Shown here in pieces: positions 2,759-50,602 of a stretch of DNA of 64,000 nt. The DNA is taken from the NCBI GenBank assembly GCA_020025075.1, contig JAHHSR010000001.1:43011-107010 (forward strand), written 5' to 3'. The translations under genes were made by a program, and so were the position numbers. The notes under the pieces were generated by a model. That model was not told the origin of the DNA and searched no databases. It was given only the letters and a program-made list of their open reading frames with translations. Origin of the DNA: Pectinatus sp. (lineage in GTDB: Bacteria > Bacillota > Negativicutes > Selenomonadales > Selenomonadaceae). The stretch's first letter is position 1; every line of letters starts with the position of its first letter.

Positions 2759-4252
2759 TCACCCCAGTTTTTCTATAATGGCTGCACGAGCTTCTTCTTT
2801 ATCATCGAAGTGGATTTTTCCCGTCTTTAAAATCTGGTAGTCCTCATGTCCCTTACCGGCAATTACCACTATATCATCTTTTTGGGCCAGCTCAATTGCA
2901 CGCTTAATGGCAGTACGCCTATCAATAATTTTTTCATGCTGATTGCCATGCAGACCTTCTTTTACGCCAGCTTCCACCTCATCTAAAATAAAAGCAGGGT
3001 CCTCTGTTCGTGGATTATCCGAAGTGGCTATAACAACGTCTGACAGTTGTGCCGCCAATTTGCCCATGACTGGTCTTTTGGTCCTGTCGCGGTCACCGCC
3101 ACAGCCAAAGACCGTAATGATTCGCGCCTTGGCTATCTCGCGTGCCGTATGAAGAATGTTTTCCAGTCCATCTGGCGTATGAGCATAATCAACAATGACA
3201 GAAAAATCCTGTTTTTGGCTGGCACGGACGAGTTCAAAACGGCCTGATACACCTTTAAAGTCCTCTAAGACCGCCTTTATTTTTTCTACAGGTATTTTTT
3301 CCGCCACAGCGGCAGCTATGGCGCCAAGTACATTGTAAACGTTAAACAAGCCCGTAATCTGCAATTTAAGCATCAAGGATACCTTTCCTGCCACTTGCAG
3401 CTCCATGCCGCCAGCATGAATCTTAATGTTCTGAGCAAAAAAGTCTGCTTTTTCCTTTGCGCTATAAGAAAAGCTTGGACAAGCTGTATGCTCAAGCATA
3501 ATTTTTGCTGCCTTGTCATCGCTATTGACGACAGCTGTTTTATTTTTCTTTTTATTTTCCGGCGCCGTCAAAGAAGAAAAGAGACGTGCCTTAGCAAGGG
3601 CATAGTTTTCAAACGTTTTATGAAAATCGAGATGGTCGCGGGTTAAATTGGTAAAAATTGCCGTATCAAACTCGCAGCCCGCCACGCGATTAAGTGCCAA
3701 AGCATGCGAAGATACTTCCATCACGACATAATCGCACTTTGCTTTTAGCATGCGGTACAGAATATGCTGCAGGTCAACTACATCTGGCGTCGTATTATTA
3801 ATCGGTAATACTTCATCGCCAATCATAATTTTGATTGTACCAATAACGCCGACTTTATAGCCCGCTTGGCGCAATATGGCTTGCAGCATATAAGAGGTAG
3901 TAGTCTTGCCATTTGTACCCGTGACGCCAATGAGGCGCATCTTGTGTGCAGGATAATCATAAAAAGCCGGCACAATTTTTTCCAGTGCTGCGTGAACATC
4001 AGGCACAATTATTTTCGCAACATTTGCTGGCACCACAACATCTTCTTCGGCTAAAATGGCAGCAGCACCCTTTTCTAAGACCATGGGAACAAAATCCTTG
4101 CCGTTGCTGACCGTCCCCTTAATGCAGGCAAAAAGAGAACCCTCTACTACCTTTCTCGAATCGTGCTCAATGCCTGTTATCTGCTGATTTAAATCATTTT
4201 CCAAATTCGCTTTTGGCAAAAGCGATATTAAATCTCGTATAGTCTTCACCAA
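2759..4252 (-). CDS. murE: UDP-N-acetylmuramoyl-L-alanyl-D-glutamate--2,6-diaminopimelate ligase MurE
   Basis: 497 aa with P-loop GVTGTNGKTTTSY and the DNPR motif (SDNPRTEDP) typical of meso-DAP-adding MurE. Confidence 0.93.
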   Translation of the reverse strand: MVKTIRDLISLLPKANLENDLNQQITGIEHDSRKVVEGSLFACIKGTVSNGKDFVPMVLEKGAAAILAEEDVVVPANVAKIIVPDVHAALEKIVPAFYDYPAHKMRLIGVTGTNGKTTTSYMLQAILRQAGYKVGVIGTIKIMIGDEVLPINNTTPDVVDLQHILYRMLKAKCDYVVMEVSSHALALNRVAGCEFDTAIFTNLTRDHLDFHKTFENYALAKARLFSSLTAPENKKKNKTAVVNSDDKAAKIMLEHTACPSFSYSAKEKADFFAQNIKIHAGGMELQVAGKVSLMLKLQITGLFNVYNVLGAIAAAVAEKIPVEKIKAVLEDFKGVSGRFELVRASQKQDFSVIVDYAHTPDGLENILHTAREIAKARIITVFGCGGDRDRTKRPVMGKLAAQLSDVVIATSDNPRTEDPAFILDEVEAGVKEGLHGNQHEKIIDRRTAIKRAIELAQKDDIVVIAGKGHEDYQILKTGKIHFDDKEEARAAIIEKLG

Positions 4253-38328: not shown

Positions 38329-38625
38329 TCAATGTCTGCGGCGCAATTCTTCCAGTTTAGCCAAGACATCGGCATCAAGACGGTCCGAAAGAGAATTTCT
38401 TTGAAAAGAAATTTTTTGAGGGACGATATATTCGCGCTTTAATTTCTTTTTTGCCGCCTTGATTCTGCTTCTGAGCTCCTTTACCGTAATGCGGTATGCA
38501 CCGGCTCCCAAGATAGCACTTTGCTCCGCGCCATCTGAAGTCACTACGAAGACATCCTTTCCTTCTCGCACTGCCTGATAGGCGAGCCTTTCAATATAGC
38601 TATCTGCTGTTTCTTTGGCCTTAGT
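38329..38625 (-). CDS. yacP: YacP/Rae1-like NYN-domain ribonuclease, exon 2 (predicted)
   Basis: TKAKETADSYIERLAYQAVREGKDVFVVTSDGAEQSAILGAGAYRITVKEL... matches the C-terminal half of YacP/Rae1 (TKENETADERIEKLA...VATSD in B. subtilis, from memory). Confidence 0.8.
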   Translation of the reverse strand, partial: TKAKETADSYIERLAYQAVREGKDVFVVTSDGAEQSAILGAGAYRITVKELRSRIKAAKKKLKREYIVPQKISFQRNSLSDRLDADVLAKLEELRRRH

Positions 38626-39055
38626 CTGAGTTCCTTCAGAGAAGGGGAATATTCGCACCGGGACGCTGCTCCCGCTGCAGTCTTTTATAGACTTCTTTAG
38701 CTTTCGCTAAAGCATAGACTATATCTTTTCCTTATCCTTTTTAAGGACTTAGGCGGAACCGCTTCGGCTATCAAAAACTTATAGCCTACTTCCACTGGGG
38801 AATAGTCGTTGAACTTTCTCCTGTTCGGAGCTTAGCTGCTGATTGGCAATTAAAAAGCGTTTAGGATTTAACCTTGCACCATCTGACCATTTTTTTCTGC
38901 TTTCGCCACCATCGCGTTCAGGTTTCTTTCAACCTCGCGCTGTGGTATGGCCAGCTTTACGCGTTTCCAGCAATTCAATTCCTTTATGAGATAGCTTTCG
39001 CTACATACTCGTTTCCGAATATGCTTACTATTTTGCCACTTTAGCCGTAGCTTTA
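38626..39055 (-). ncRNA. Group I self-splicing intron, ORF-less (about 430 nt)
   Basis: Sense strand carries P AAUUGCUGGAAA (38975-38964), Q AAUCAGCAGC (38844-38835), R GUUCAACGACUA (38814-38803) and S AAGAUAUAGUCU (38727-38716). P4 UUGCUG/CAGCAG and P7 GACUA/UAGUC pair. P1 has a U.G wobble at the exon end, the 3' terminal nucleotide is G, and there are several GAAA-capped hairpins. Confidence 0.85.
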
Positions 39056-39283
39056 ATAAATCACTTCAAAGTTCTTTCCTAATTTTTCAACAGAACCATT
39101 TGAATCAGTATAAAGAGCATCAAAAACCACCGATGTAAAATAATTTTCATAGGCACTATATTCTCTGAGCATTTCAATGAGCTTATCGCGTGCATAGGCG
39201 AAATCATCTCGCCAACGCATCAATTCTGGCCAGCAATTTAAGACATTGTATCCATCTACAATCATATGCGCCCGCATTGCCAT
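39056..39283 (-). CDS. yacP: YacP/Rae1-like NYN-domain ribonuclease, exon 1 (predicted)
   Basis: MAMRAHMIVDGYNVLNCWPEL...NFEVIY is the N-terminal half of the NYN domain (DGYN motif). In the unspliced frame TAA follows immediately (39055-39053). Lies downstream of rlmB, as yacO-yacP in Bacillus. Confidence 0.8.
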
Positions 39284-39294
39284 TCACCGCCCCA

Positions 39295-40197
39295 TCATTT
39301 ACCGCTGCGCTGCTTTAGTGCCTCATACATCAAAATAGCCGCCGCGTTAGAAGCATTGAGTGAATTTACGCGACCGCACATGGGAATCCGAACTAAAAAG
39401 TCACACGCCTTTTGCACCTGCTGTGAGATGCCTTTGCCTTCACTGCCAATAACCAAAACAAGTGGTCCCTTTAAATCAGCTTCATAATAAGGCATCGTAC
39501 CAGAACTTTCTGCCCCTGTTACCCAAAAGCCATTCTTTTTGAGCTTTTCCAAGGTCATGAGCAGGCTATTGACGCGCACTACCGGCATATACTCTACTGC
39601 ACCAGCAGAAATCATCGAAACAGTTGAAGAAAGTGGGCAACTGCGCCGCTTGGGAATGAGTACGGCATCGGCACCGGCAGCATCTGCCGTCCGGATAATG
39701 GCGCCAAGATTTTGCGGGTCCTCAATTTCATCAAGCATAATTAAAAACGGCGCACGGCCAAGGCGTTCTGCCTTTATAAGGACATCATCTAAATCAGCAT
39801 AATCAATGGGAGCTGTATAAGCGGCAATTCCCTGATGATGCTGCGTACCGGTTAAAAGGTCTAATTTTTTGCGATTGAGCGTATTGACAACGACATGATT
39901 TTTGCGCGCAAGGAAAATTATTTCCTGCAGGGAACCGCCATGCGCGTTTTCAGCGACAATTACCTTATTTATGGAACGTCCATTTTTTAGAGCCTCCCGC
40001 ACAGCATTGCGGCCGTAAATCAAATCGGGAGAAGGTGCTATAGCTTCATTTGGCAAAGAAATAGGTGCCGCTGCCTTCATAGATTCTTTGGGCGGCCTTT
40101 TTTCCTCGCCTTTATCATATCTTGCCGCCGAACGGCGGCTAGCAGGCTTTGACTGCTTATGCTTTATCTGTTTTTTCATCCTTTTTTTCCTTTCCAT
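39295..40197 (-). CDS. rlmB: 23S rRNA (guanosine-2'-O)-methyltransferase RlmB (TrmH family, YacO type)
   Basis: [34 protein letters not shown] and [14 protein letters not shown] (SPOUT motifs). Has a basic N-terminal extension of about 60 aa. Confidence 0.9.
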
Positions 40198-47204: not shown

Positions 47205-50200
47205 TTACTTTCTCCTTTTTAACTCCATCTGTTCGCCCGCCAATGTCTTAACGACGCGCAGGGCAGCCTCAGACGGTTTTTTGAGCATATTAGGCGTCAT
47301 CTTAACCTGAATGATGTTTTCATTGCCACTGATAAAGCGAATAAGACCGCCAAAAAGATTTCTCAGACGGAAAATATTTTCGGTCTTGAGCTTATGCTCC
47401 TTCAAAAGGGCAAAGATTAAGACGCCCGCCTGCTCACTGATAGACTTTATTCCTAAATCACGCGCATAATTTTTTACTTCCGCTATCTGCAAAAGATTTT
47501 TTAGCGGTTCCGTAAGCTGGCCAAAGCGGTCCTCAAGCTCGTCTTTTAGCGCCTTGATATGTTCCTTGGTGCGAATAGCGGCGATGCGCTGATAAATTTC
47601 AATCTTATGCATGGCATCATCAATATAGTCTGCATCAATATAGGCATCAGCCTTGATTTCGATGGTCGGCTCAGCCAACGGTTCTACGCGAGCTTTATTG
47701 CCCCTACTCAATTTTTCCACAGCTTCTTCCAAGAGATGGCAATACATTTCAAAGCCAACGCTTGCGATATGGCCGTGCTGCTGCGAGCCCAAAAGATTTC
47801 CCGCGCCGCGAATTTCTAAATCGCGCATGGCAATTTTAAAGCCTGAGCCAAGCTGCGCGAAATCCTTTATTGCCTGCAAGCGCTTTTCTGCCGTTTCCGT
47901 CAAGACCTTATCTCGCTGATAGACAAAATAGGCAAAAGCCATATTATTCGAGCGACCGACACGGCCACGCATCTGATAAAGCTGCGACAAGCCGAAATTA
48001 TCAGCATCATAGATGATGATTGTATTGGCATTGGCTATATCAAGCCCATTTTCAATAATGCTCGTCGCCAAAAGCACATCGTACTTTCCCTCATAAAATT
48101 CCATCATCGCATCTTCAAGCATGCCTTCCGGCATTTGACCATGGGCAACTTTAATCTTGACTTCTGGCAAAAGAGAGGAAAGGCGCAAATACATCTTGTC
48201 AATAGTATTGACGCGATTATAAACGAAATAGACCTGACCACCGCGGCGCAGCTCACGTCTTATTGCATCGCAAATAATATTATCTTGATTTTCAACGACG
48301 TAGGTCTGTATCGGATAGCGGTTTTTGGGCGGCGTCTCGATGACGCTCATATCGCGCGCTCCGACCAAAGACATATGCAAGGTTCGCGGGATTGGCGTTG
48401 CGCTCAAGGTCAAGACATCCAAATTAGTGCTAAGACGCTTTATCTTTTCTTTCTGCTTAACGCCAAAACGCTGTTCTTCATCGACTATCAAAAGACCTAA
48501 ATCCTTATATTTAACACTCTTGTTTAAAATGGCGTGCGTGCCGATAAGGATATCAACTTGCCCTAAAGCCAGCTTTTCCAAAACGCTTTTTTGTTCTTTC
48601 GCCGTGCGAAAACGGCAGATGACATCAACCACGGGAGCAAACTCCGCCATCCTGTTGCTGAACGTCTTATAGTGCTGCTGCGCCAAGACCGTCGTCGGAA
48701 CCAAAACCGCTACCTGCTTGCCATCCATAACCGCCTTAAAGGCCGCCCGAATTGCCACTTCCGTCTTGCCAAAGCCAACATCACCGCACAAAAGGCGGTC
48801 CATGGCCTTTTCGCTTTCCATATCATCCTTGATTTCGCGCAAAGCCATGAGCTGGTCATCGGTTTCCTCATAAGGGAAGGACTCTTCAAATTCATGCTGC
48901 CACGGCGTATCGGGAGAAAACTTAAAGCCATTTCCCGCCTTGCGCTGCGCATATAATTCAATGAGTTCAGTGGCAATCTTTTCAACGGCCTCTTGCGCCT
49001 TCTTCTTGGCCTTCTTCCATGCCGTGCCGTTCATCTTGCTCAGCTGCGGCGCTTCGCCTTCTGAGCCGATATATTTCTGCAAAAGATGTACCTGGTCAGT
49101 CGGCACGAACAGCTTGTCATTGCCGCTATATTTGATGTGCAAATAATCACGATGGATGCCATTTAGGTCAATGGTCTCCACGCCCATATACTTGCCAATG
49201 CCGTGATTGATATGAACGACATAATCACCCACCTTTATTTCGCTGAAGTGATTAATTTTCTCGCCTGGCGAAGCAGCAATTGCCCTTTGCCGCAGCAAAT
49301 GCCTTTTTTGGTGCCCCATGATGTCCTTTTCCGTAATTACGGCCAACTTAGCGCCCGGCATCTCAAAGCCATTCATCAGACTGCCCGTCAAAAGGGCAAT
49401 AGTTCCCGCATCGTATTGAAAGCGCTTGCTAAGAGCCGCCTCTACATCATGGCTTGCCAAAATCCCCTTGATATAGTCGGCCTTTTGCTCATCTTCCATG
49501 ATAATGGCCACGGCATAATCATTTTTTTGCCATTCCTTTAATTCATTGGTCAAAAGCTCCATCTGCCGCTGAAAGGAGGTCATATTCTTAGCCGTAATGC
49601 TGAAAATTTCCTTGGGCGAACCGGTATGGATGCGCTGCAGCATTAAAGACATATAGACGACATTTTTTTTCTTGGCCTGCGCCAAAAGCTCTTCCCATTT
49701 AAAGACGTAATCCTTATATTCAGGATTTTCCTTGACCTGGGCCAAGATTTCTTCATGCACACGATTAGGTTCATCAATGCAGACGCTTGCCTCTTCGGGC
49801 AAATAGGCCAAAAAACTGTCTGCATGGCGTATCTCCTTTGCTGAAAGCAGCGGCATGACAAGAATCGCTTCTTCCTCAGCTACGGATATCTGCGAGTTTA
49901 TGTCAAATGTCCTTATCGACTCTATCTCATCGTCAAGCAATTCTAGTCGATAAGGTGCTTCTGCATTGATGGGATAAATGTCAATAATGCCGCCGCGCAC
50001 ACAAAATTGCCCCAAGTGCTCAATCTGTCCCGTGCGCTCATAGCCCATTTTCACCAGGCGCTCAGATATTATTTCCATGGACAATTGCGCACCGCGCTTT
50101 ATGGTCAGGCTATATGCTTCAACATCGTTTCTGGCAAGTTCTTTTTGCACCGCTGCCTCGCCCTGAGCGACGACGACCATAGGGCCGCCTTGGGACATCT

Positions 50201-50537
50201 TGCCTAAAATCTCCAAGCGCTGCGCCGTTACCTCAAGGCTCTTTGCGCTAGTGGAAAAAAAAGCCATGTCGGCTAGCGGCAGCTGATAGACAGCGTATTT
50301 TTGCGACAAAAGCTCCGAAAGGTCATCTGCCCATTCTGCTGCATTTTCACGGCCATGCGTGATTATTACCAGCGGGTTTGCCATACTTTCCAAGCATGCG
50401 GCTAAAGCTGCGCGCTTTTGCGTGCCTGATAAGCCATAAATATGGCTTTCCATTCCTTTTTGACCTTTTGTCGCAAAAAATTTCTTTATTTTTTCGATTG
50501 CCGGATCAGAACTGATTTTAGCTAAAAGTCCTTCCAT
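47205..50537 (-). CDS. mfd: Transcription-repair coupling factor Mfd
   Basis: 1110 aa with a CarD-like domain, superfamily-2 helicase motifs (LLCGDVGFGKTEVA, DEEQRFG, TLSATPIPRT) and a TRG region. Confidence 0.96.
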   Translation of the reverse strand: MEGLLAKISSDPAIEKIKKFFATKGQKGMESHIYGLSGTQKRAALAACLESMANPLVIITHGRENAAEWADDLSELLSQKYAVYQLPLADMAFFSTSAKSLEVTAQRLEILGKMSQGGPMVVVAQGEAAVQKELARNDVEAYSLTIKRGAQLSMEIISERLVKMGYERTGQIEHLGQFCVRGGIIDIYPINAEAPYRLELLDDEIESIRTFDINSQISVAEEEAILVMPLLSAKEIRHADSFLAYLPEEASVCIDEPNRVHEEILAQVKENPEYKDYVFKWEELLAQAKKKNVVYMSLMLQRIHTGSPKEIFSITAKNMTSFQRQMELLTNELKEWQKNDYAVAIIMEDEQKADYIKGILASHDVEAALSKRFQYDAGTIALLTGSLMNGFEMPGAKLAVITEKDIMGHQKRHLLRQRAIAASPGEKINHFSEIKVGDYVVHINHGIGKYMGVETIDLNGIHRDYLHIKYSGNDKLFVPTDQVHLLQKYIGSEGEAPQLSKMNGTAWKKAKKKAQEAVEKIATELIELYAQRKAGNGFKFSPDTPWQHEFEESFPYEETDDQLMALREIKDDMESEKAMDRLLCGDVGFGKTEVAIRAAFKAVMDGKQVAVLVPTTVLAQQHYKTFSNRMAEFAPVVDVICRFRTAKEQKSVLEKLALGQVDILIGTHAILNKSVKYKDLGLLIVDEEQRFGVKQKEKIKRLSTNLDVLTLSATPIPRTLHMSLVGARDMSVIETPPKNRYPIQTYVVENQDNIICDAIRRELRRGGQVYFVYNRVNTIDKMYLRLSSLLPEVKIKVAHGQMPEGMLEDAMMEFYEGKYDVLLATSIIENGLDIANANTIIIYDADNFGLSQLYQMRGRVGRSNNMAFAYFVYQRDKVLTETAEKRLQAIKDFAQLGSGFKIAMRDLEIRGAGNLLGSQQHGHIASVGFEMYCHLLEEAVEKLSRGNKARVEPLAEPTIEIKADAYIDADYIDDAMHKIEIYQRIAAIRTKEHIKALKDELEDRFGQLTEPLKNLLQIAEVKNYARDLGIKSISEQAGVLIFALLKEHKLKTENIFRLRNLFGGLIRFISGNENIIQVKMTPNMLKKPSEAALRVVKTLAGEQMELKRRK

Positions 50538-50571
50538 TTAATCTCCCCGTTTAAGCCCACGGCTCCATGCC

Positions 50572-50602
50572 AAAAGGGGACCATCTTCAGACGGTCCCTT
50601 TT
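50572..50602 (-). terminator. Candidate terminator after the ynbB-like gene
   Basis: Minus strand reads AAGGGACC-GUCUGAAGAU-GGUCCCCUU with a trailing UUGG. The stem has one bulge and the U-tract is weak. Confidence 0.4.

What the first reader, a model, noticed from the sequence alone, without database searches (positions are those of the whole stretch)
38329..39283. Predicted splice junction restores the conserved catalytic motif, so Rae1-like RNase expression should depend on splicing
**Predicted junction.** Joining exon 1 (ending ...GAA GUG AUU UAU at 39056) to the first in-frame codon after a G (38626 is the intron-terminal G; exon 2 starts ACU at 38625) gives ...NFEVIY|TKAKETADSYIERLA.... 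This has the same length and pattern as the remembered B. subtilis Rae1 segment VEVIFTKENETADERIEKLA.

**Insertion site.** The intron therefore sits 4 codons before the conserved ETAD acidic motif of the NYN/PIN-like active site. Homing-type introns typically target conserved sequence of this kind.

**Consequence of not splicing.** The intron's first three nucleotides are UAA, in frame. Unspliced mRNA would yield only a 76-aa N-terminal fragment.

**Mobility.** No homing endonuclease ORF is present, so the intron is either immobile or mobilised in trans.

**Alternative acceptor.** A second in-frame site after G at 38656 would retain RIFPFSEGTQ. I consider it less likely because it adds 10 residues absent from homologs.
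Basis: inference. Interest (0 to 1): 0.6.

Follow-up and report, generated by a model that had tools for sequence, protein, structure and literature searches.

The report
Transposon-derived self-splicing intron in rae1
The Rae1/YacP ribonuclease gene of this small-genome Selenomonadaceae bacterium is split by a 430-base group I self-splicing intron, a gene-less remnant of an IStron (an intron fused to an IS605 transposon), and it is one of at least 16 such introns in a lineage unusually rich in them.

Summary
Rfam finds a full-length group I intron between the two rae1 halves (75.6 bits, E 2e-17). Joining exon 1 (39283-39056) to exon 2 (38625-38329) gives a 174-aa protein. It matches the whole YacP NYN model and aligns without a gap to 17 homologs. 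The alternative acceptor is rejected because it lies inside stem P9.2.

The homing interpretation is wrong. The element has the hallmarks of a group A (IS200/IS605-type) IStron: insertion after TTTAT, a CTCAG end, an IA2 fold and a GAAUAU motif after P9.2. It lacks tnpA, tnpB, the ωRNA and both TnpA-binding palindromes. Related genomes carry full-length versions.

It is one of 16 diverged ORF-less copies (70-91% identical) in this 1.6 Mb genome, at least 13 of them inside protein genes. Their fold is kept by compensatory changes (97.5% of cells paired, 60 covarying pairs), which argues for selection on splicing. About 24 near-identical younger IStron copies break the assembly. A related 1.4 Mb genome has 84 such introns, including an independent one elsewhere in rae1.

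This is a new member of a known kind, in an exceptional genomic setting.

The parts
39056..39283 (-). rae1/yacP exon 1 (76 codons, MAMRAH...NFEVIY). The start may instead be the ATG at 39277.
   Evidence: ORF list. PF05991 positions 1-72. Aligns to homolog N-termini.
39056..39060 (-). TTTAT target pentanucleotide, the last 5 nt of exon 1, which pairs with the internal guide sequence in P1
   Evidence: All 16 copies follow YYGAT/YTTAT. Group A IStron targets are TTGAT/ATTAT/TTTAT (PMC4227781).
38626..39055 (-). 430-nt ORF-less group IA2 intron, a remnant of a group A IStron
   Evidence: RF00028 at 75.6 bits. Boundaries from the exon join, the family alignment and the empty site in a relative.
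39053..39055 (-). UAA, the first three intron nucleotides, in frame with exon 1
   Evidence: Sequence.
39035..39051 (-). P1-loop hairpin GCUAC...GUGGC, at the position where full IStrons carry the left-end TnpA palindrome, which is absent here
   Evidence: Sequence. Comparison with the left ends of L036/L037 and the palindrome scan.
39024..39030 (-). Internal guide sequence UAGUAAG. G39028 forms the U·G wobble pair with the last exon nucleotide, U39056.
   Evidence: The P1 helix is supported by covariation: U·G in 14/14 copies, and the neighbouring pair G-C in 9 and U-A in 5.
39003..39024 (-). P2 hairpin
   Evidence: 8 of 9 pairs carry compensatory changes. Coordinates.
38730..38982 (-). Catalytic core P3-P8, including P4-P6, P7 (GACUAU 38807-38802 with AUAGUC 38722-38717), P7.1, P7.2 and P8
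   Evidence: Rfam alignment. Covariation counts per helix. Coordinates.
38655..38712 (-). Peripheral P9, P9.1 and P9.2 hairpins. The rejected alternative acceptor G38656 lies in the 3' strand of P9.2.
   Evidence: Helices 18-20 have 12 covarying pairs. In this copy P9.1 is changed compensatorily (GUCU/AGAC in place of GUUC/GAAC).
38649..38654 (-). GAAUAU motif, the position after which full IStrons carry tnpA, tnpB and the ωRNA
   Evidence: PMC4227781 lists GAACGA, GAACAA, GAACAC, GAAUAA and GAAUAU. Full-length relatives have tnpA/tnpB after GTGAACGA.
38626..38648 (-). Remnant inverted-repeat stem-loop (UUCC...GGAA) followed by the terminal CUCAG. G38626 is the 3'-terminal ωG.
   Evidence: CAG is invariant in 14/14 copies. 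Full IStrons end GGGAGGTTCAG, with the 5' half of the stem right after GTGAACGA.
38329..38625 (-). rae1/yacP exon 2 (98 codons plus stop, TKAKETADSYIERLA...)
   Evidence: PF05991 positions 73-166. Aligns with homologs and with B. subtilis YacP, PDB 5mq8/5mq9.

Best explanation
The rae1 (yacP) gene is interrupted by a 430-nt self-splicing group I intron of subclass IA2. The intron is what is left of a group A IStron, a group I intron fused to an IS200/IS605 transposon.

Inferred history: the original element inserted by TnpA-type single-strand transposition immediately 3' of a TTTAT pentanucleotide in the sense strand. Its IS module (tnpA, tnpB, ωRNA and the TnpA-binding palindromes) was later lost. 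Only a short stem-loop and the terminal CUCAG remain after the GAAUAU motif.

Inferred operation today, not observed: the gene is transcribed with the intron. A ribosome translating exon 1 stops at the UAA that forms the first intron codon. The exon end UUUAU pairs with the guide UAGUAAG to form P1, with a U·G wobble at the splice site. A free guanosine attacks after U39056. The terminal G38626 then docks into the P7 pocket, helped by the CA before it, and the exons are ligated to ...GUGAUUUAU|ACUAAGGCC.... The product is a 174-aa Rae1 with its catalytic Asp residues intact. Without splicing, only a 76-aa fragment is made.

The copy is most likely no longer mobile at the DNA level. It probably persists because precise loss is rare and splicing makes it nearly harmless.
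For: Identity as a group I intron:
- RF00028 matches full length at 75.6 bits, E 2e-17.

Junction:
- The joined ORF matches the complete PF05991 model, with exon 1 ending at profile position 72 and exon 2 starting at 73.
- There is no indel against 17 homologs.
- The closest relative (71% aa) reads GTCGTCTAC|ACGAAA without interruption.
- All 20 near relatives with the gene, plus 4 of the 5 intron-rich family genomes checked later, have it uninterrupted; the exception, G019, carries an intron at a different site.

IStron ancestry:
- The TTTAT target, TCAG end, IA2 features and GAAUAU motif are as defined for group A IStrons (PMC4227781).
- The same 3' motifs in related genomes are followed by tnpB, or by tnpA and tnpB, and those elements end GACTTTAGTCGTGGGAGGTTCAG.
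- The best annotated hit (72% identity over 86% of the intron) lies directly upstream of an annotated IS200/IS605 tnpB in a C. difficile plasmid.

Functional constraint:
- The genome's 16 copies are 70-91% identical. In the 14 complete copies aligned, 97.5% of pair cells form standard pairs against 34-39% in slid controls.
- 60 pairs carry compensatory changes against 10-16 in the slid controls, and 0 of 500 shuffles reach the observed values.
- The guide sequence co-varies with the exon target (G-C in 9 copies, U-A in 5), and the U·G pair is invariant.
- The rae1 copy itself carries a compensated P9.1.
- The exons keep all 46 invariant residues, including D10 and D84, the equivalents of B. 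subtilis D7 and D81.

Loss of mobility:
- Neither GACTTTAGTC palindrome is present in this copy.
- Its nearest relative anywhere in 201 family genomes is only 80% identical.
Against:
- This copy has an A where 13 of 14 copies have G at the J7/9 position that pairs with the C of the terminal CAG (P9.0). It also has GUGCGAAU where the others have GUGAAC. Its 3' splice step could therefore be weaker.
- P10 pairing with the 3' exon is not evident.
- Loss of mobility is inferred from missing palindromes, not tested. Some ORF-less copies at different loci share a similar tail architecture (C30/C34, C11/C18), which hints that ORF-less forms may once have moved.
Confidence: 0.85

Rival explanations
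1. The element is a still-mobile, non-autonomous miniature IStron (MITE/PATE-like). It would be moved in trans by a Y1 TnpA encoded elsewhere, for example by the young high-copy IStron family or by another IS200/IS605 element in the genome.
For: The genome encodes four Y1 TnpA genes and a TnpB, plus about 24 near-identical IStron copies that look recently active. Sixteen ORF-less copies in this genome and 84 in G019 are many to explain by independent IS losses. Some tails at different loci look homologous (C30/C34, C11/C18).
Against: The rae1 copy lacks both subterminal palindromes that flank full-length relatives and the young family. Its two end hairpins do not resemble each other. No copy closer than 80% exists in 201 family genomes. 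Most tails differ in length and sequence. No resident IS shares ends with it.
Confidence: 0.2
2. rae1 is a pseudogene. The intron no longer splices and the gene is dead or dispensable.
For: This copy deviates from the family consensus at the P9.0 partner and in the GUGAAC motif. Rae1 is not essential in B. subtilis (general knowledge of the Rae1 literature, e.g. PMC10351889).
Against: Both exons are intact and in frame, and all family-invariant residues are kept. The ribozyme core is intact at 75.6 bits, and this copy carries its own compensatory change in P9.1. The insertion is old (no more than 80% identity to any other copy), yet the exons show no decay.
Confidence: 0.06
3. The copies spread at the RNA level. 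The excised intron would reverse-splice into transcripts at sites complementary to its guide sequence, followed by reverse transcription and recombination.
For: The guide sequence and the 5' exon pentanucleotide co-vary across copies, and only 5-6 nt of target are shared. That is the pattern expected for reverse splicing.
Against: The same pattern is expected from TnpA insertion next to TTGAT/TTTAT followed by selection for splicing. Full-length relatives carry tnpA/tnpB and end palindromes at the same boundaries. No reverse transcriptase was linked to the elements, though I did not search for one systematically.
Confidence: 0.05
4. The two halves are translated separately. The 109-aa ORF would start at GTG 38658, and the halves would assemble into a split Rae1 without splicing.
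For: An in-frame GTG at 38658 opens a 109-aa ORF that covers exon 2, and a GGGAG lies upstream of it.
Against: The GTG and the GGGAG lie inside the conserved P9.2 hairpin. The extra 10 residues have no counterpart in homologs. The fold would be cut between a β-strand and the ETAD motif. All 16 family members restore ORFs only by exact intron removal.
Confidence: 0.02

Closest known systems
CdISt1 and other group A IStrons (C. difficile, Megamonas, Megasphaera, Fusobacterium; Braun 2000, Tourasse 2014 PMC4227781, Zedaveinyte 2023 bioRxiv 10.1101/2023.11.20.567912)
   Same: IA2 ribozyme with P7.1/P7.2 and P9-P9.2. Insertion 3' of TTGAT/TTTAT and a TCAG 3' end. GAAYRA motif after P9.2. Transposon ends coincide with the splice sites. 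72% identity to a C. difficile copy that lies upstream of tnpB.
   Different: No tnpA, tnpB, ωRNA or subterminal palindromes. At 430 nt it is below the 482-2582 nt range reported. It is an old, diverged copy, whereas IStron copies within a strain are usually more than 93% identical.
ORF-less BcISt1 of emetic Bacillus cereus (group B, IS607-type; PMC4227781)
   Same: An IStron that has lost both ORFs and keeps only the inverted-repeat stem-loop before the 3' splice site. It is inherited vertically.
   Different: Different IStron group (GG-ending target, CGG end, long AU-rich stem). Only one locus in a few closely related strains, against 16 to 84 loci here.
Stand-alone group I introns of C. difficile 630 and the Fusobacterium TTGAT-adjacent IA2 intron
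   Same: Group IA2 introns related to IStron introns but without an IS module. One lies next to TTGAT.
   Different: Tourasse et al. judged the Fusobacterium intron not to be a former IStron, because it has no IR stem and a different 3' end. The copy here keeps the IR-stem remnant and the TCAG end, so descent from an IStron is clear.
Phage group I introns in protein genes (T4 td/nrdB/sunY, Twort orf142, Bacillus phage and recA/nrdE introns)
   Same: Self-splicing introns in bacterial-type protein-coding genes with an early in-frame stop. Staphylococcus Twort-like phages share core similarity.
   Different: Those spread by homing endonucleases to one cognate site each. This family shares only a pentanucleotide target and has no endonuclease.
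Eukaryotic introners (transposon-derived spliceosomal introns)
   Same: By analogy only: a DNA transposon whose ends are splice sites seeds many new introns across genes.
   Different: Those are spliceosomal and not self-splicing, and there is no homology.

Membership tests
Group I intron (Rfam RF00028) | Covariance-model score above the curated gathering threshold over the whole model | tested here: met
   75.6 bits against 50, model positions 1-253/253, E 2.1e-17.
Group I intron (Rfam RF00028) | 5' exon ends in U, paired with G of an internal guide sequence (P1 U·G wobble) | tested here: met
   U39056·G39028. U·G in 14/14 family copies, and flanking P1 pairs co-vary.
Group I intron (Rfam RF00028) | Intron ends in G (ωG), and the conserved P3-P8 core includes the P7 guanosine pocket | tested here: met
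   Terminal CAG is invariant. P7 GACUAU/AUAGUC is invariant. P3, P5, P6 and P8 carry compensatory changes.
Group I intron (Rfam RF00028) | Guanosine-dependent self-splicing that yields ligated exons | not testable with these tools
Needs RT-PCR or an in vitro assay.
Group A (IS200/IS605-type) IStron | Inserted immediately 3' of TTGAT/ATTAT/TTTAT, with no target duplication | tested here: met
   GTGATTTAT|TAAAGC. Empty sites in relatives show no duplication.
Group A (IS200/IS605-type) IStron | 3' terminus TCAG preceded by an inverted-repeat stem, with the IS placed after a GAAYRA motif downstream of P9.2 | tested here: met
   GAAUAU at 38654-38649, UUCC...GGAA stem, CUCAG end.
Group A (IS200/IS605-type) IStron | Carries an IS component (tnpB, with or without tnpA) | tested here: not met
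   Only 23 nt follow the GAAUAU motif. The largest intron ORFs are 36 and 32 aa. It is therefore a derivative and not a full member.
Group A (IS200/IS605-type) IStron | Subterminal palindromes at both ends for TnpA binding | tested here: not met
   GACTTYAGTC palindromes are present in L036/L037 and in the young family but absent from this copy.
Homing-endonuclease-mobilised group I intron | Encodes, or is associated with, a homing endonuclease and recurs at one long cognate site | tested here: not met
   No such ORF. The 16 copies sit in unrelated genes and share only 5 nt of target.
Rae1/YacP NYN ribonuclease (PF05991) | Full-length domain match | tested here: met
   After joining: 1-166/166, 163.4 bits. 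E 8e-23 to B. subtilis YacP, PDB 5mq9.
Rae1/YacP NYN ribonuclease (PF05991) | Catalytic aspartates equivalent to B. subtilis D7 and D81 | tested here: met
   D10 and D84 are invariant in alignment A1. The D7N D81N mutant is catalytically dead (PMC10351889).
Rae1/YacP NYN ribonuclease (PF05991) | Ribosome-dependent endoribonuclease activity | not tested
   Needs biochemistry.

The most novel reading that the evidence does not exclude
The rae1 intron belongs to a family of miniature, ORF-less IStron derivatives that multiplied as non-autonomous elements in a clade of small-genome Selenomonadaceae. The result is the highest group I intron loads I am aware of for any bacterium: at least 16 old copies plus about 24 young copies in 1.6 Mb here, and 84 in 1.4 Mb in relative G019, with up to four introns in one gene. 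Under this reading, transposon-borne ribozymes seed introns across housekeeping genes, as a bacterial counterpart of eukaryotic introner bursts. The counts are observed. What is uncertain is whether the ORF-less form spreads by itself.
Probability: 0.35. Interest if true: 0.8.

Novelty: new member of a known kind. Interest (0 to 1): 0.6.

Why it matters
Group I introns in chromosomal bacterial protein-coding genes are rare. Those known are mostly tied to homing endonucleases, or to intact IStrons in a few Firmicutes and Fusobacteria. This case shows a later stage: the transposon part has decayed and an ordinary-looking self-splicing intron is left in a conserved housekeeping gene, held there by selection on its RNA fold.

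The rae1 copy by itself is a modest addition: a new host gene, and an ORF-less group A derivative, a form the 2014 IStron survey had recorded only for a group B element.

The context is the more valuable lead. This genome and a relative carry tens of such introns in genes such as dnaX, RNase M5, endonuclease IV, flagellin and rae1 itself, the last hit twice independently in two genera. The previously reported maximum is 24 IStrons per C. difficile strain. These genomes would be a natural system for three questions. How do bacteria tolerate many introns when transcription and translation are coupled? How do IStrons decay? Can intron-only remnants still move?

Tried and rejected
1. Alternative acceptor after G38656. 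Rejected: lower Pfam score, a 10-aa insert absent from homologs, and a position inside the conserved P9.2 stem.
2. Homing to a conserved catalytic motif. Rejected: only a pentanucleotide is shared among copies, and G019 has an independent insertion at another site in the same gene.
3. Selection for phase-0 insertion, so that the intron's UAA/UGA terminates translation at once. Observed phase 0 to phase 2 ratios are 10:3 for old copies and 14:2 for young ones. But 78% of in-frame TTGAT sites in this genome are phase 0, and phase 1 is impossible because it would create TGA. Binomial p = 0.28. No evidence of selection.
4. A resident IS with the same ends as the ORF-less copies. The IS200-like pair (C37/C12), the IS605-like tnpA-tnpB (C33/C74) and the lone tnpA (C88) share no ends with them.
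5. P10 pairing of the 3' exon with the guide sequence. No convincing pairing for this copy, by inspection only.
6. An independent second assembly. The Logan contig from SRR14298104 is 100% identical over 2 kb, so it is the same organism and not independent.
8. Naming the organism. The window's own record is withheld. The nearest named genomes are Megamonas and Selenomonas at 66-68% NusA identity.

Full report
**1. The observation**

On the minus strand, a 76-codon ORF (39283-39056) ends ...GAA GTG ATT TAT and is followed at once by TAA. A second open frame runs to 38329. Rfam finds exactly one RNA family in the 64 kb window. It is a group I intron at 39028-38695 (-), 75.6 bits against a gathering score of 50, E 2.1e-17, covering the whole model.

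Joining exon 1 to the first base after G38626 gives a 174-aa protein.
- It matches the whole YacP-like NYN model PF05991 (1-166/166, E 6e-48). Exon 1 alone ends at profile position 72 and exon 2 alone starts at 73.
- It aligns with B. subtilis YacP/Rae1 (PDB 5mq8/5mq9) at E 8e-23.
- It aligns with 17 Selenomonadaceae homologs with no gap at the junction. Y76, T77, E81, T82, A83 and D84 are invariant.
- D10 and D84 correspond to B. subtilis D7 and D81, whose double mutant is catalytically dead (PMC10351889).

**2. What the element is**

A search of the whole 1.63 Mb assembly with RF00028 gave 16 matches, 13 above the gathering score. They are one diverged family, 70-91% identical to each other.

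The copies interrupt unrelated genes in the sense orientation. Hosts include:
- dnaX
- RNase M5
- endonuclease IV
- a CFA synthase
- a flagellin-like gene
- a lytic transglycosylase
- a sensor kinase
- hcp

Removing the element restores the reading frame wherever both ends are assembled. The hosts of three copies (C4, C34, C46) remain unclear.

Every copy follows a YYGAT or YTTAT pentanucleotide. The complete copies end in NCAG and are 398-457 nt long.

This matches the published definition of group A IStrons: insertion after TTGAT/ATTAT/TTTAT, a TCAG end, an IA2 ribozyme, and an IS200/IS605 module placed after a GAACGA...GAAUAU motif downstream of P9.2 inside an inverted-repeat stem (PMC4227781). 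The rae1 copy has TTTAT, GAAUAU, a short UUCC...GGAA stem and CUCAG, but nothing in between.

Related genomes of the family hold full-length versions with the same 3' motifs, followed by tnpB, or by tnpA and tnpB. These end ...GCGACTTTAGTCGTGGGAGGTTCAG. The closest annotated sequence, in a C. difficile plasmid (72% over 86% of the intron), sits directly upstream of an annotated IS200/IS605 tnpB. The rae1 intron is therefore an ORF-less derivative of a group A IStron and not a homing-endonuclease intron.

**3. Is it functional?**

I aligned the 14 complete copies and counted base pairs on a structure with P1 to P9.2 plus the P7 pseudoknot.
- 97.5% of cells form standard pairs, against 34-39% when partners are slid by 1-3 columns.
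- 60 of 102 pairs carry compensatory changes, against 10-16 in the slid controls.
- None of 500 shuffles reaches the observed values.
- In P1 the splice-site U·G is invariant. The next pair switches between G-C (TTGAT targets, guide GUCAG) and U-A (TTTAT targets, guide GUAAG).
- The rae1 copy has its own compensated P9.1 (GUCU/AGAC).

The exons are intact even though the copy is old. Together this argues that the copies, this one included, are kept splicing-competent by selection.

Two blemishes of this copy are noted. It has A in place of G at the J7/9 base that pairs with the C of the terminal CAG, and GUGCGAAU in place of GUGAAC.

**4. Mobility**

Full-length relatives, and a young family in this same genome, carry GACTTYAGTC palindromes near both ends. 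The literature identifies these as the TnpA binding sites. The rae1 copy has neither. Its nearest relative in 201 family genomes is 80% identical, in G019. Its nearest relative in its own genome is 77% identical.

All 20 near relatives with a rae1 gene have it uninterrupted, and several have an unoccupied TTTAT at the site. I conclude that it is most likely an immobile relic.

The alternative is that ORF-less copies were moved in trans. It stays open for three reasons. The genome has four Y1 transposase genes. Some tails at different loci look homologous. And the number of ORF-less copies in the clade is large.

**5. Context found on the way**

- About 24 contig ends stop inside one near-identical left end, always preceded by TTGAT and carrying a guide sequence and a P2 hairpin. 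Another 22 contig ends start inside the matching right end. An internal remnant on C17 shows a TnpB C-terminus, an ωRNA-like stretch and the right end. This is a young, high-copy IStron that collapsed in assembly and explains about a quarter of all contig ends. Most of its insertions are also inside genes.
- Relative genome G019 (1.4 Mb, another genus) has 84 RF00028 matches, 73 above threshold. All five copies I read in full lack ORFs. Four sit within 1.8 kb in one acyltransferase gene.
- G019's rae1 is interrupted too, but after ...IVFD (TTGAT), 21 codons upstream. Its TTTAT at the window's site is empty.
- G019 also holds fragments of tnpA and tnpB, consistent with IS modules in decay.
- The highest count reported in the 2014 survey is 24 IStrons per C. 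difficile strain.

**6. Comparison and verdict**

The element works like any IA2 group I intron, and it descends from a group A IStron. It fails two defining IStron features, the IS genes and the end palindromes, so I file it as an IStron-derived stand-alone intron.

Precedents are the ORF-less BcISt1 (group B) and the stand-alone introns noted in C. difficile 630. The 2014 survey found no stand-alone copies of IStron introns.

The single rae1 intron is a new member of a known kind. The intron load of this lineage is the unusual part and deserves its own study. The phase-0 bias of insertions looked suggestive but is explained by where TTGAT falls in coding frames.

Noticed in passing
Whole genome G000: C67:14153-14477, C63:1003-1335, C23:58870-59203, C18:13178-13509, C45:5052-5391, C11:20260-20620, C4:1298-1676, C88:19-325, C20:10313-10653, C39:10314-10633, C34:21829-22168, C30:402-738, C46:722-1046, C2:3577-3858, C21:3-286: Fifteen further ORF-less IStron-type group I introns, 70-91% identical to one another. 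Hosts include dnaX, RNase M5, endonuclease IV, CFA synthase, a flagellin-like gene, an SLT transglycosylase, a polysaccharide deacetylase, a HAMP sensor kinase, hcp and a PG-binding protein. The hosts of three copies (C4, C34, C46) are unclear.
   Followed up: partly
G000 contig ends (e.g. C1:1-50, C8, C10, C15, C19, C24, C26, C33 for the left end; C3, C7, C11-C13, C30, C37, C44, C47 for the right end) and C17:7050-7249: About 24 near-identical copies of a young IStron collapsed in assembly. The left end TTGAT|TGAAATTGCGCCGCATACTCGTGACTTTAGTCGTGAG...GTCAG sits at 24 contig ends, and the right end ...GCGACTTTAGTCGTGGGAGGTTCAG| at 22. The C17 remnant shows a TnpB C-terminus and an ωRNA-like stretch. 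The element's interior is absent from the assembly.
   Followed up: partly
Relative genome G019 (e.g. G019:C1:22037-23798, C1:29698-34412, C3:29659-36212): 84 group I intron matches (73 above the Rfam threshold) in a 1.4 Mb genome, about one per 17 kb. All five copies read in full lack ORFs. Four lie within 1.8 kb in one acyltransferase gene. This is far above the 24 IStrons per strain reported for C. difficile.
   Followed up: partly
L086 (G019:C1:39700-41000), intron about 317-822 of the locus: G019's rae1 carries an independent intron after ...IVFD (target TTGAT), 21 codons upstream of the window's site. The TTTAT at the window's site is unoccupied there.
   Followed up: yes
G000 C33:~1-1100 continuing into C74:~3200-3777: A single intron-less IS605-type element (tnpA followed by tnpB) split across two contigs that overlap by 46 nt. 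Its ωRNA-like 3' region resembles that of the IStrons, but its left end differs.
   Followed up: partly
G000 C37:8462-9177 and C12:~49860-50580: Two copies of a 716-bp IS200-like element (tnpA only), 97.5% identical.
   Followed up: no
Family-wide: G008, G101, G070, G068, G133, G174: Several other Selenomonadaceae genomes hold multiple IStron copies. G008 and G101 have many near-identical full-length ones with tnpB.
   Followed up: no
window 39295-39300 / 39277-39283: The rlmB stop and the rae1 start are only about 10 nt apart. The closest homolog starts at the equivalent of M3 (ATG 39277), so the annotated start at 39283 may be two codons too early.
   Followed up: no
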